This document shows, in pieces, positions 21,701 through 30,700 of a DNA stretch of 64,000 bases (position 1 is the stretch's first letter; every line of letters starts with the position of its first letter). Origin of the DNA: an uncultured Planctomycetota bacterium (lineage in GTDB: Bacteria; Planctomycetota; Planctomycetia; Gemmatales; Gemmataceae); assembly GCA_963849325.1 (NCBI GenBank), contig CAWKHF010000007.1:96001-160000 (forward strand). The letters are read 5' to 3'. The position numbers were made by a program.

Positions 21701-24700
21701 CGCCGCAGACCAAGGTCGGCCAAACCTCCCTCGTCCTCACGGGCAAAGCCAATCACCAGGGCCGCGATGTGACGGCTACTGCGCCGCCGGTCGCCCTCGT
21801 GGTCAAGAAATAAAAACGCCATCCATCCTACGGCCCTTGTCTGTATTTCCGGGCGATTGCTAATATCACATGGATGATGATGAGGAGGAGAGTGCCGCCC
21901 GCGAACGACCACAGACCGGCCTGTATCGTCCTACGGGTTCCGGTGAGAAAGCCAGCGATAAAACATGCGGCCCCGATGGCCTGTAGTAGGCAGGCAATGT
22001 AGAATCCGAATTCAGAGGCAAGCGGCTTCTGTTTATGTCTCCATTTGATTACTAAGATCATGGAGCTGAGAATCATGAGAAGAACGGCGCCGGTGAATAA
22101 GGGAACGCACAACCATACCCCAACAATAACGAGCTGTCTAAGGCCAGCGAAAAAGCCAATGATCTCACACAGCAATCCTAGAAGTCCCAGTATTGCTGCA
22201 ACCCGGACGCAAAAATCGATAGAAAGCAGCTTGCCTGACATTCGGACAATCACTGCCTATGGCTGTGACGCAGCCCAATATCTCTATGTTCGCTCATCCT
22301 GGTGTAGTTCACCATCACTGGTATCAGGAGAGGGTGCATCATATAGCTCGTATCGCACGCCTTCTACTTCACCGGAGGCGATTGGCTTCGCACTGGTTGG
22401 TTGATACTCTGCGAGGATCTGCGAAACAGTGCGGTTATTCATTCTCTCGTAGCGCCTTCAATTCCATACCATCCAACATAGTTCCGTAGGATGGTACGAA
22501 GTTGCTTACTCAATACTGGCGGCAATGCCTGAATGGCTTTCGTCAAAGAGATGGACACTTCCTGAAGGCTTGAGCCTGAAATCAATCTTCCCCCATGATC
22601 TGTCACGGCATTTCTCCGCAATAACACGTTATGGCTTCACGAGAAGCACTCCATTCCTCCATGCCCATTGGCTTCCAGCGCTATCAATATACCATATATC
22701 CATTTGGAATTGCTGAGATGCCCACTGCATAAGACTTTGGCAATCTCTCTGTACTTTCCGTGATTTTCTCATAGTTCGCCATAAGCGACAACTTCGGGAG
22801 ATAATTCTTGGTGAGGTCGAGCAACATGGCAGCGACGGGCGGGTGGACGATAACCGGCTCCCCGGACACGATGAGGGGTGACTACCGTCCCTCGTCTCGC
22901 CAAGGAGCCGGCCATGCCATTGTCGCAACTGCCCACCTCGTTGTCCGCCTGGCTGTCCGACATCACCGCTGCCCTCGATCGCCGCTCCGCCCCGCGACTG
23001 CTCCTGCTGCTGGTCGGGGCCCTGTTCGCCAAAGGACGCCGTACCGTCATCTCCTGGTTCCACGCCGCCGGCATCACCACCGACTTCCGGCCCGCCTACA
23101 ACGCCTTGGGGGCTGCTGGCCGCCGCGTCGATGCCCTGAGCTACCGCCTGCTTGGCATCGCCCTCAAGCCGCTGATGCGTCGCATCCCCGGCGACCGTCT
23201 GCTGTTCGCCATCGACGATACGCCGACGGCGCGCTACGGACCCTGCGTGCAGGGCGCCGGCATCCACCACAACCCCAGCCCCGGCCCCGCCGGCGAAAAG
23301 TTCGTCTACGGTCACGTCTGGGTCAGCCTCGCCTGGTTGGCCCATCACCCGGCCTGGCACACGCTGGCCCTGCCGTTGCGTGCCCTGTTGTACGTCCGCG
23401 CCAAGGACGTGCCGGCGTTGGCCGAGAACTACCCCTGGCCGTTCCGCACCAAGCTGGAACTGGCTGCGGAGTTGGTCCGCTGGTTGACGGTCTGGGTGGG
23501 CGGTCTGGGCCGGACCTTGTGGCTGGCGGTCGATGGGGCCTACGCCAAGCGACCGTTTTTGCAGCCGGTGATGGCGTTGGGAGTGGTGGTCGTCAGCCGG
23601 CTGCGCAAGGACGCTCACCTGATGACCCTGCCACCGACCCGACGTCGGCACGGACAGCGTGGACCGTTGCCGACCTACGGCAAGGAGCGGATCGACCTGG
23701 CCAAGCGTGCCGGACAGCAGCGGGGCTGGCGGCGGCTGGAGTGCGTGCAGTACGGAGAGCGGGTGGTCAAGCAGATCAAGACGTTCCAGGCGACCTGGCG
23801 GCCGGCGGGCGGCTGCATCTGCGTGGTGCTCGTGCGTGAGGACGACGGCTGGCTGGCCTACTTCTGCACGGACCCGGAGGCGACGGCGACGCAGGTGCTG
23901 GAAGCGATGGCCGACCGAGGTGCGATCGAGCAGATGTTCAAGGATGTCAAGGAGGTCTGGGGTGCCGGCCAGCAGCAGGTGCGGAACGTGTACGCCAGCA
24001 TCGGAGCCTGGGCGGTGAACCTGGTGATGTACAGCGTGGTGGAGGCGTGGGCTTGGACGCATGAGGAGGAGGAGTTGGTGGACCGCCGTCGGTCGCCGTG
24101 GGACACCAAGGATCGTCGGCCGTCGCACGCGGACAAGCGGAAGGCGTTGCAACGGCTGATCCTCCGAGAAGAAATCCGCGCGGCTGTCGAGGGTCGGCCC
24201 GAGTCGGAAGGGTTTCGGAACGTGGCTATCCGCCTGCTCGATTTAGCCGCCTGACTGTAAGACTCTCACGGAAAGTACAGAATCTCTGCAAGCTGGGAGG
24301 ATTCCATCGAAAGTCAGCCTCATTCCCGGCCCCAACTTCCCTGCTTCGGCCAACTCGGCGATAACTTTTCCTTCAGTATGAGTGTACCAGGCTTGTTCAG
24401 GAAATGTCAACTTGGTTCCCTTGGGGAAGGTAACTTCGGCACCACTTATCGCAGTTCCGCCTGCGATTCTCCCACCTCTTGGACCTGTAAATTCCCAATC
24501 AGCCACATGTGGAGTATTCGACGCTCGTCCGAACCAGCCTCCCAGCCCGGCGAAGGCCATCGTCAGTACTGCGGGCGTGAAGTCGCCAATGGTCTTCGCC
24601 GTTCCCTCACTCGCTCCCAGGCCACTTGCAGCCGAATAACCCAGATACGCAATCACCGAGGAGTTGGACTGTCCCGAACCCCAGTCGGCCACTCCCGCGA

Positions 24701-27700: not shown

Positions 27701-30700
27701 GCGAGTCGCCGCTGTGGCTGTGGTTGTGATTGGTATCGTTGACTTGGCCGGTGCCGTCGGACAGCGGCACGCTGCCCTTGACGGTGTTGACTACGTCGGT
27801 ATCGCTGGCGTCGCTGCCACTGGCGGTCAGCGTGCCGTTGGCCGTGCCCGCGTCGTCGTAGGTCAGGTCGGCTGTGGCGTTGCCGCTGGAACTGCTGCTG
27901 GCCGTGGACAGCGACGTTTGCGTGGGCTGGTTGGTCCCCGCTTGCTTCGACCACACAAAGCCGCCGCCGGACTGGTTGCTCTGCGCCTGGTCGTAGCTGC
28001 TGCCGTCGGTCAGCTGGCCGTCGCTATTGACATTGCCCTTGGCCTTGGACGTGCCCGAGGTACTCGCCGTGTTGCTGGCGAAGACGATGGCGCTCCCTTG
28101 CAGCGAGCCATCGGCAGCGGTGAAGTCGGCCTTGTTGAAGCCCGAGGCGGCGCTCTTGCTCTGGTAGCTGCCGCTGTCGTCGATGCTGTTGACCTTGGCC
28201 ACCTGGTCGGACGCGCCGGAGACGACGCCGTCGCTGTGACTACTGCTGTTGGCCTGGGATGAGTACGTGCCCACCGTCTGACCGGCGGGGGCACCACTGC
28301 TGGAGTCGGCACCGACGGCGATGGTGGAGCCGCCGCTGTCGCTCTGCGACATCTTGGCGTCACTGCTGAGCTGCGAACGGTAGGTCTGCTGGTCCTGGGT
28401 GGCCGAACCGTCGGCGTAGGTCTGGTCCAACGTCTGATCGTCGCTGTAGCTGCCGCTGCTGTCGCTCTGGTAGCGGGAGGTGCCGTCGCTGGCGGCATCG
28501 CCGCCGCGGTGGTAGGCATCGGTGACGGCGTAATGGTTGGTCTGGTTGCCGCTATCGTGGTCCTCGCGGCCCTGCGTGCCCGACTGCGACAAGCCGCCGG
28601 CATCGGTTAGGTTGGTGTCCTGGTTACCGTCGTCTTCATCGAAGCTCTGGTTGTCGATGTCCCAACGGAACTGATCGCGGTCGCCACTGGTGGGATCGCT
28701 GGCGCTAGTGCTGTTCTGGAAGTAATAGCGTGAGGCGACCTGATCGTGGTAATCGTTGTGGGCGTTGATGGCCTGCTGGGTGAGGATGCCGAAGGAGCCG
28801 TAGGTGTTCGTGATCGTGCTGTTACTGTTGAGGAAACCACTGGCGGAAGAGAGTTGTAGGTAATGTGTGCCGTCGGCCGGCGCGGCGGACGGGTCGGGAG
28901 CGGGGCTGTTATCGTCGGTGGGGAAGTTGGCGGCGTTGTCGCTTTGGATCAACTCGCTGTTGTAAGTGCTTCCTTGCCGGGAGGTCGAGACCGCCGTGCC
29001 CGAGCCGTCGGACTCGCTTTCCTCGGACGTGCCATCATCCGGCGTGCTATCAGCATTCGAGGAGGCCGCGTCGGTCCAGGTGGACGACTGGTTGGACCAG
29101 TCGGTGCGACTGGAGTGGTTGACGAACTGATAGCGGCCGCCGTTGTCGGCGGTGTAGCTGCCGGAGGCCTCGAAGGTGATCGACCCGTTCCAGCTGGTGT
29201 GGTCCCACGTCATGTAGCCGAAGCCATAAGTCGGCACGTAGCCGCCGAGCGGCATGCCTTGCATGGCGATGCTGGGATCGATGGGCGTGCTGAAGGGCGT
29301 CACCTCGTTCTCCACATCGAAGTTCCAGCCATAATCGGTGTGCAAGGAGGCGGTGGCGGTGGTAGTTCCGGTCAGCACCCAGGAGGCGCCGGCCGCGGCC
29401 TGATCGCCGGTAGCCGGCGCGATGGCGGCGTCGAGGGTGACGTCGAGGGAGAAGGAACCATCCTTGCTGCCGCCGCTGTAAGTGTAGTGCTGCACATAAT
29501 GGCTGGAGTCGATCTGGATGGCAGGCGTGGCCGTGGCACTGGTGGTGCTATCGTCCGAGGTGGCGGCACTGGTATCGTCGGCCGTGGTATCGGTGGCGTC
29601 GGTGGTGTCTGCCGTCAGGTCCGCCGGCAGGTCGGGGGCGGTGGTGATGTCGGGTGGCGTGTAGTCGGAGTTATCCACGGCGGGGCCGGCGGAGGTATCC
29701 GGTGCATCGCTGGTGTCGGTGCTGCTGCTATCGGGCCCCCAATCATCGTCCGTGCTGGAGTCATCCGGCGGGGTGGTGTCATCGCTGCTGACATCCGTCG
29801 GCAGGATCAGCCCCGGTTGCGGCGACGTGGCGTCGGCGGTGGAGTCGGTCGGGGCGGGATCATTGTTGGGGCTGGCCGATAGGGAGCTGGTCCACCACGA
29901 ACCGTTGGCAAGCAGCGTCTGAGGATCGAGAGGAGCGGCACTGTCATCGGCGGGGGTGGTGCTGGTGTCGCCCGCGGATGGTCCTATGGCTTGCGCCGCG
30001 AGTGCGCCGCTGGCCGGGTCGATCGGGGACGCCAGGTTGGGATCATCGCCCGCGTTATCGGCAGAGGAATCGGACGGCTGTGCGAGTGTATCGGCAGCGG
30101 TCGCGGTCGCGGTCGCTGTCGCCGGCATGGCAGCCATGTACTGGGCGTAAGCGGTGTAGGACGAGAAGGGCAGGTCCGGGGTGGAGGATGCGGCGGCGTC
30201 GGCATTCGGAGTCCCATCCGTGCCGGTGTTATCGGCAGCGGGGGAAGTCGCGGTCGCGGCCGTTGGCGTGGCGGCGTAGAGGTCCGCATAAGTCGTGGTG
30301 CCGGCTGAGGAAGTCGGGTCCGGGGGCAGCCATGCGGCCGACAGCAAGACGCGCTCCTCCAAGCTTTCCAGGCGGAGGTCCACGTACCGAGGTTTGCTCG
30401 ACCGTGGTCTCCGGCTGCGGAGGTGGGAGGTGGAAATATGAGGCAGAAGATGGCTTTTCAGCCAGGAGAAAAAGGTCATGGGCGTCCCCGCTCGTCCCAA
30501 GGAAACCTAAAGAAACCGTAATGAAAGTCTTTGGGGAAGAGTCATGTCGAAACCGCATTTGTCAAGGAAGTGAATACGTTTTTAATCTTTAGCCGTTGGT
30601 ATGGTAATTGCGGTGAAACATCGAAAGGGCGCCGGACGTTCGCGCCTTTGTAGGTTCCCTAAGGAGGAATTTATGGCTTCTAATCCTCCCCCTGGCTCGT

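What a model noticed while it worked through the whole genome (the two positions that open the first line are those of the whole stretch)
24245..30383. The LEDR export motif heads further toxin-cassette loci with RHS and other stalks
Besides the two families above, LExLExR-led proteins head three more cassette loci: C7:120-126 kb (unmodelled stalk, a tip, a small gene, then an orphan cassette with an H-x-E...P-A-C deaminase-like tip and another small gene) and two RHS loci (C6:594-611 kb, C6:797-807 kb). A sixth, C6:764-778 kb, repeats an Ig-domain stalk with two different tips. One planctomycete thus uses the same N-terminal motif for at least four unrelated toxin stalks.
Evidence so far: Motif census of 63 proteins (54); repeated pre-tip segment at 80% identity with a different tip on C7, and three RHS core ends with different tips (44, 199); RHS_repeat and He_PIG domains (203); small low-GC genes follow each tip (42, 44).
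(Added by a program. Inside this text positions count along the whole contig: contig position 96,001 is position 1 of the stretch shown here. "Call 12" and the like, gene names such as g00115 and contig names such as C1 are that model's own, and its searches are not shown. The text may have been shortened before it was handed on; [...] marks where a part breaks off. The agent that wrote the report below was given it as the finding of a first reader that could run no searches.)

Follow-up and report, generated by a model that had tools for sequence, protein, structure and literature searches.

The report
Planctomycete toxin array with new tip
A soil-type planctomycete bacterium carries a swappable-warhead toxin gene whose export tag, long sheet-like stalk and small toxin-antidote pair have not been linked or described before, giving a handle on how this little-studied group attacks its neighbours.

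Summary
Real polymorphic-toxin locus (minus strand). A 1500-aa protein carries the known planctomycete LExLExR export motif (PF07595 type), an acidic long-stranded beta-meander stalk with no RHS/YD model match, a hydrophobic pre-toxin segment and a ~62-aa tip with an invariant His ('ARFH'). The tip is mobile (52 clusters, also on RHS and HINT carriers) and is followed by the same 151-aa immunity family in 13 of 13 genome loci; the pair passes complex prediction (0.78, best control 0.01), covering R-F-H. The pre-toxin segment carries 23 different tips in 29 relatives. The motif is a general tag (about 70 proteins here, roughly six toxin-like), so it is not toxin-specific. The C6 Ig pair does have a degenerate motif and shares its leader with the two RHS genes, but C6 partners are larger exported proteins and C6 toxicity is less sure. 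Nine literature searches found no motif-toxin link; the scan had not noted this sequence before. New variant of a known kind; interest 0.6.

The parts
25977..30479 (-). Full-length polymorphic toxin gene, 1500 aa
   Evidence: P0007 identical; 43-46% identical over the stalk to a same-genus protein with HINT and another tip
30339..30377 (-). LExLExR motif after an Arg/Lys-rich leader (PF07595 / LEPR-XLL type)
   Evidence: NF012209 residues 35-50, 9.7 bits, below cut-off; 26.5 bits with own-genome HMM, reversed control max 12.6
26667..29492 (-). Acidic Ser/Gly/Asp/Thr-rich stalk, predicted meander of long antiparallel beta strands
   Evidence: AlphaFold2 mean pLDDT 74.4, pTM 0.58 for residues 330-1410 with 11 sequences; strands mostly polar on both faces, net charge -36 over 470 residues; no Pfam/NCBIfam/PHROGs model
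26277..26636 (-). Gly-rich hydrophobic pre-toxin helices; recombination anchor
   Evidence: hydropathy peaks at residues 1304-1350; 40 cluster representatives share it with different tails; low pLDDT
25980..26192 (-). ARFH tip, ~62-aa putative toxin domain with invariant His and conserved Arg, Tyr, Asp
   Evidence: 52 cluster representatives; model pLDDT 91.7
25522..25977 (-). Cognate immunity gene, 151 aa, helical, no signal peptide, start overlaps toxin stop
   Evidence: 13 of 13 loci, also G022; complex score 0.78, best control 0.01; overlap
25287..25449 (.). Two palindromic REP-like repeats (25287-25365, 25384-25449), many copies genome-wide
24752..25198 (-). Orphan immunity-like gene, 148 aa; cognate toxin not in this locus
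   Evidence: homologues in toxin/immunity clusters of other planctomycetes; no family model
24281..24743 (-). Orphan cassette, 5' part: pre-toxin repeat plus most of a Pput_2613/BaDTF3 deaminase (PH, FP, HTE, first Cys)
22749..24280 (+). IS701-family element (transposase 22878-24254) inserted in the deaminase
   Evidence: NF049999 289.8 bits; ends and 7-bp duplication
22629..22748 (-). 3' piece of the deaminase (second Cys to stop)
   Evidence: matches the C-terminus of intact homologue P0104 by eye
22284..22627 (-). Frameshifted ~113-aa gene in the immunity position; not shown to be the deaminase's partner
   Evidence: its two frames match one open frame in G113 and G088, neither next to a deaminase
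21828..22253 (-). 141-aa low-GC membrane protein closing the island; role unknown

Best explanation
The locus is a planctomycete polymorphic toxin system for attacking related bacteria. The LExLExR leader routes the protein to the cell surface like other large planctomycete surface proteins (inferred). The beta-meander stalk presents or shields the C-terminal module, the Gly-rich helices help it cross the target membrane, and the ARFH tip acts in the cytoplasm (all inferred; my best guess for activity is a small metal-independent nuclease using the Arg-His-Tyr cluster, about 40%). The overlapping 151-aa protein neutralises it by covering Arg-Phe-His (co-occurrence shown, binding modelled). Recombination through the repeated pre-toxin segment swaps in new tip-immunity pairs (swapping shown across genomes); downstream orphans are spare or past cassettes, and the DddB-like DNA cytosine deaminase cassette here is dead by IS701 insertion.
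For: Same stalk or pre-toxin segment with different tails: 23 distinct tails among 29 of 40 relatives with a tail of 60 aa or more, including XOO_2897 deaminase, and PT-HINT in several; G036 has three motif-led paralogues, one with EndoU and a MafI immunity gene; G003 has motif, HINT and Tox-URI2/AHH cassettes with Imm11. ARFH tip sits on RHS, HINT and other carriers and is followed by the same family in 13 of 13 loci. Complex prediction 0.78 vs best control 0.01, runs agree in at least 88% of contacts, partner pLDDT at least 89; the mark was reached by 116 of 157 solved complexes and 2 of 215 mismatched pairs; best contacts involve tip residues 38-40. Deaminase: 73% and 63% identical to PF14427 proteins, profile match to BaDTF3 structures 9k3e/9pw0-2, E 2e-4 to 0.012. 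Toxin-then-immunity order and orphan cassettes are the rule for these systems (PMC3482391 section 41).
Against: No toxicity, export or processing was measured. The C7 protein has no HINT or recognised autoprotease, so tip release is unexplained. The motif scores below the curated cut-offs and its export role is only proposed (PMC8567305). The stalk family is rare: 3 of 250 relatives in the order. The nuclease guess rests on conserved residue types only. No immunity partner of the deaminase was identified.
Confidence: 0.85

Rival explanations
1. Variable-tip adhesin or kin-recognition protein: the tip binds its partner as a self/non-self label without killing.
For: The tip is tiny and has no family model; most motif-led proteins in this genome are adhesin-like. 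Fits the C6 loci better, where partners look exported and the RHS tips are Pro- or Gly-rich.
Against: The C7 partner has no signal peptide; the same pre-toxin slot holds deaminases and nucleases in relatives; the tip also follows RHS cores and HINT domains.
Confidence: 0.08
2. The stalk is itself an outer-membrane beta-barrel that exports its own C-terminal toxin (autotransporter-like).
For: Structural neighbours of the model are outer-membrane barrels (CymA Z 15.5, rmsd 13.9 A, 259 aligned).
Against: Those matches have rmsd 5.6-34 A and 4-11% identity; strands are up to 29 residues and mostly polar on both faces, with no continuous hydrophobic belt.
Confidence: 0.07
3. Decayed island: the genes are relics no longer exported or used in this strain.
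For: IS701 in the orphan tip, frameshifted downstream gene.
Against: The main gene and its partner are intact and translationally coupled; decay of orphans is normal in such arrays. This rival concerns present use, not origin.
Confidence: 0.1

Closest known systems
Polymorphic toxin systems (Zhang et al. 2012, PMC3482391), e.g. Neisseria MafB and RHS/CDI arrays
   Same: Constant N-terminal carrier, variable C-terminal toxin, toxin-then-immunity order, orphan cassettes with a homologous anchor, spare immunity genes.
   Different: Trafficking marker is the planctomycete LExLExR leader, not named in the passages and sections read; stalk has no RHS, haemagglutinin or other model; ARFH toxin and its immunity family have no model.
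Planctomycete extracellular motif PF07595 / LEPR-XLL NF012209 (PMC8567305 section 19, citing Studholme 2004)
   Same: Arg-rich leader then LExLExR at the N-terminus of large surface proteins; tens of copies per genome.
   Different: Described on proteases, Ig and integrin-beta proteins; no link to toxins found in the searches.
BaDTF3 / Pput_2613-like deaminase, DddB (PF14427; PDB 9k3e, 9pw0-2; PMC13346905, PMC3239186)
   Same: N-terminal Pro-His, Phe-Pro eight residues before HTE, CxxC; already listed for Planctomyces maris.
   Different: Here an orphan cassette broken by IS701; Ala where the family has Pro before the first Cys; no RRPP segment seen; immunity not identified.
TANFOR polymorphic toxins of Bacteroidetes (PMC7073777, abstract and outline only)
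   Same: Phylum-restricted N-terminal marker on polymorphic toxins.
   Different: TANFOR is a domain that marks toxins; the LExLExR motif is a short general tag on mostly non-toxin proteins.

Membership tests
Polymorphic toxin system | Constant carrier with variable C-terminal tips across strains | tested here: met
   23 distinct tails in 29 evaluable relatives; G185, G069, G036
Polymorphic toxin system | Cognate immunity gene directly downstream | tested here: met
   13 of 13 loci; complex 0.78 vs control 0.01
Polymorphic toxin system | Orphan cassette sharing the pre-toxin segment | tested here: met
   82% nt over 216 nt
Polymorphic toxin system | Tip is toxic and is delivered to other cells | not testable with these tools
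   needs experiment
PF07595 / NF012209 motif proteins | Score above curated cut-off | tested here: not met
   NF012209 9.7 vs 17 bits; no PF07595 match in this genome passes the cut-off, 11 sub-threshold
PF07595 / NF012209 motif proteins | N-terminal LxLExLExRxx[LP] consensus after a basic stretch | tested here: met
   consensus as in PMC8567305
PF07595 / NF012209 motif proteins | Motif directs export | not testable with these tools
   only proposed in the literature read
RHS/YD toxins (C7 stalk) | YD repeats and RHS-associated core | tested here: not met
   no RHS_repeat, TIGR01643 or TIGR03696 match at E up to 1
RHS/YD toxins (C7 stalk) | Hollow beta-sheet shell around the toxin | tested here: inconclusive
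   curved long-strand meander predicted; enclosure not assessed
RHS/YD toxins (C6:594-611 kb and 797-807 kb) | YD repeats and RHS core before a variable tip | tested here: met
RHS/YD toxins (C6:594-611 kb and 797-807 kb) | Tip is a toxin with a co-travelling immunity gene | tested here: inconclusive
   797-kb tip: no relative in 150 genomes; the two 594-611 kb tips were not searched
Pput_2613 / BaDTF3 deaminase | HTE motif and CxxC zinc ligands | tested here: met
   HTE and both Cys present, split by IS701
Pput_2613 / BaDTF3 deaminase | Profile membership | tested here: met
   broken piece 15 bits (below cut-off); its 73% and 63% identical intact homologues pass PF14427; 9k3e E 2e-4
Pput_2613 / BaDTF3 deaminase | Intact frame and dsDNA cytosine deaminase activity | tested here: not met
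   frame is interrupted; activity not testable
BECR-fold RNase (ARFH tip) | [quoted passage not shown] | tested here: inconclusive
   model order is strand-strand-helix-strand-strand

The most novel reading that the evidence does not exclude
The LExLExR leader marks an unidentified planctomycete-specific secretion route that is the phylum's main toxin-delivery path in place of T5SS/T6SS, and the C7 stalk is a new, non-RHS beta-sheet shell that carries toxins, here a new enzyme class (ARFH) so far seen only in Planctomycetota.
Probability: 0.3. Interest if true: 0.82.

Novelty: new variant of a known kind. Interest (0 to 1): 0.6.

Why it matters
How planctomycetes export their many motif-led surface proteins, and whether they fight by contact, is open. 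A motif-led toxin with a cognate antidote gives a selectable readout: killing of a partner-less strain should need the motif and the export machine, so the pathway can be screened genetically. The locus also yields a compact 62-aa toxin-immunity pair without a family model, a stalk type without a model, and intact DddB-like deaminase homologues of interest for base editing.

Tried and rejected
Fold searches for the ARFH tip gave nothing clear: Foldseek PDB and viral no E below 0.001; VIA best Z 3.3, rmsd 2.9 A, 54 aligned, phosphohistidine phosphatase; this does not show a new fold. ESM Atlas for the tip: one weak hit, 0.76. The A1 profile hit teneurin-like proteins only through its upstream RHS-core columns. 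Stalk fold searches: no Foldseek E below 0.001, RHS shells and ApoB at TM about 0.05; barrels at high rmsd. Deaminase neighbours: 0 of 300 other phylum genomes, two metagenome scans empty, so its immunity family stays unknown. The 148-aa gene as relative of a G036 gene: not supported; PDB profile hits are chance level. Sequencing runs: none was listed. Export machinery in the own genome (84.7% complete): VipB and Hcp not found, two VgrG-like matches, two TpsB genes each beside its own TpsA-like gene, four secretins; no transporter gene lies beside the C7 locus. My own-genome motif HMM scored only 1 of 11 long HINT toxins of relatives and did not score the C6 Ig leader, so those calls rest on a looser pattern and on leader homology. 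A pattern for a shared C-terminal helix of non-toxin motif proteins caught only 6 of 72. Promoter and terminator scan uninformative. SRLase1 and PT1-9 papers: passages read gave no link to the ARFH family; sequences were not compared.
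Full report
Anatomy. The locus lies on the minus strand from 30479 to 21828. A 1500-aa gene (30479-25977; identical to public protein P0007) begins with an Arg/Lys-rich leader and LExLExR, continues with an acidic low-complexity linker and a Ser/Gly/Asp/Thr-rich stalk, then Gly-rich hydrophobic helices and a short tip. 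Its stop overlaps the start of a 151-aa gene. Two palindromic repeats that recur across the genome follow, then a 148-aa gene, then a cassette that repeats the pre-toxin segment (82% nt over 216 nt) with another tip. An IS701 element (NF049999; 22749-24280, inverted ends, 7-bp duplication) interrupts that tip; its last 39 codons lie beyond the element. A frameshifted ~113-aa gene and a 141-aa membrane gene close the island. GC is 0.64 in the stalk and 0.48-0.55 in tips and small genes.

The carrier swaps tips. A search of 1.84 billion representatives with the last 247 residues gave 94 hits: the protein itself, 40 I assigned to the pre-toxin segment, 52 to the tip, and one partial hit (P0084) left unassigned. 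Of the 40, 11 were dropped (10 tails under 60 aa, one ending inside HINT); the other 29 fall into 23 unrelated tail clusters. Several carry PT-HINT and one an XOO_2897 deaminase. In whole genomes, 9 of 201 family genomes matched, own included, and the stalk alone 4 of 251 order genomes. G185 has the same stalk (43-46% identity), a frameshifted motif start, HINT, a different tip and two DUF4259 genes. G036 has three motif-led paralogues, one ending in EndoU with a MafI immunity gene and an orphan cassette. G003 has motif, pre-toxin segment, HINT and Tox-URI2 and AHH cassettes with Imm11. This is the layout of polymorphic toxin systems (PMC3482391; passages, outline and sections 37 and 41 read).

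The ARFH tip and its partner. The ~62-aa tip has an invariant His and near-invariant Gly, Tyr, Ala, Arg, Tyr, Asp, no Pfam, NCBIfam or PHROGs model and a confident model (pLDDT 91.7). It ends RHS, HINT and other carriers. A scan of one genome per species confirmed 13 loci among 22 pattern matches, all titled Planctomycetota; in 13 of 13 the next gene is a homologue of the 151-aa protein, overlapping the stop in 12; in the thirteenth the tip is frameshifted. Two of the 13 had already appeared. One, a Pirellulaceae protein, is motif-led with a different stalk and HINT. Complex prediction gave 0.78 against a best control of 0.01, with at least 88% contact agreement and partner pLDDT at least 89; that mark was reached by 116 of 157 solved complexes and 2 of 215 mismatched pairs, and the closest contacts are tip residues 38-40, the R-F-H. 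This supports binding over the conserved site but does not show it. The partner lacks a signal-like N-terminus, so the target is probably cytoplasmic. A metal-independent nuclease is my guess from residue types (inference, about 40%).

The orphan tip. The broken piece scores 15 bits on PF14427; two intact proteins 73% and 63% identical pass that model; their profile finds BaDTF3 structures (9k3e E 2e-4), aligning Pro-His, Phe-Pro, HTE and CxxC, which PMC13346905 (passages) describes for the dsDNA cytosine deaminase DddB. PMC3239186 (passages) already lists this clade in Planctomyces maris. The cassette is inactive as it stands. The gene after it has relatives in 2 of 130 genomes, neither beside a deaminase. 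The 148-aa gene has relatives in 4 of 250 class genomes, at least three beside toxin fragments or immunity-like genes: an orphan immunity gene by inference.

The stalk. AlphaFold2 with 11 sequences predicts about 30 antiparallel strands, many 20-29 residues long, mean pLDDT 74.4 and pTM 0.58. Most strands are polar on both faces and the core is strongly acidic, which argues for a soluble curved sheet rather than a membrane barrel. It has no YD/RHS match. A toxin-shielding shell analogous to RHS is possible but untested.

The wider claim. An HMM from 62 seed hits found 72 motif hits above a reversed-sequence control, at least two doubtful; by my reading about six head toxin-like loci (C7, C4:443 kb, C6:611, 780 and 797 kb, perhaps C2:721 kb). 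The motif is the known PF07595 tag, on 52 Tuwongella proteins and only thought to be an export signal (PMC8567305, passages and section 19; Studholme 2004 not read). But C6 partners are 161-497 aa and 5 of 6 look exported. The HExxH Ig tip has relatives in 10 of 150 genomes and a homologous exported partner follows in 5 of the 9 loci fetched; the other Ig tip has relatives in 5 of 150 with the partner in 2 of 5; the 797-kb RHS tip has none in 150. These fit envelope-acting toxins with exported antidotes, or protease-inhibitor or recognition pairs. Across the family, PT-HINT occurs in 39 of 61 genomes; of the 11 listed frames of 1500 aa or more (78 weaker matches were not listed), 5 show a loose motif in the first 130 residues and 6 begin mid-protein, against 8 of 156 long control frames. 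So motif-led toxins recur, though the sample is small and the pattern loose.

Novelty. Nine searches of the held library found no paper tying the motif to toxins or describing this stalk or tip; subscription papers and supplements were not seen. Earlier scan notes held nothing like this sequence and one note on a motif-led giant protease. The system type, the motif and the deaminase family are known; the combination, the stalk and the ARFH pair appear undescribed. Verdict: new variant of a known kind, interest 0.6.

Noticed in passing
G000 C6:594-611 kb, 764-781 kb; C4:442-453 kb; window 19763-21863 and 33064-34494: Many long genes are frameshifted, so the assembly may carry indel errors; both copies of the C6 Ig stalk show the same frameshift at the same place.
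   Followed up: partly
G000 C4:438-453 kb (L006): Motif-led 3260-aa Ser/Thr-rich stalk with a frameshifted nuclease-like tip, a 159-aa low-GC gene and a 695-aa orphan cassette; only compositional similarity to the C7 stalk.
   Followed up: partly
G000 motif proteins on C1, C2, C5, C12: Many non-toxin motif-led proteins end in a similar-looking hydrophobic helical tail that the toxins lack, a possible surface anchor; seen by eye, a simple pattern caught only 6 of 72.
   Followed up: partly
G000 C6:610986, 780613, 797265: Three unrelated stalks share one extended ~60-aa leader, suggesting the leader is shuffled as a module.
   Followed up: yes
G000 C12:241-245 kb: PT-HINT toxin cassettes in the own genome with no motif found in the frame or nearby upstream.
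   Followed up: partly
G000 C4:473-485 kb and C6:362-371 kb: Two near-identical TpsB-TpsA-like pairs, each beside a relaxase-like gene, probably on a duplicated mobile element (relaxase label from recall).
   Followed up: no
G023, G056, G060: Very large PT-HINT expansions in some family members (47, 21 and 16 matches).
   Followed up: no
window 25287-25449: Two different palindromic repeat families side by side, each with dozens of genomic copies.
   Followed up: no
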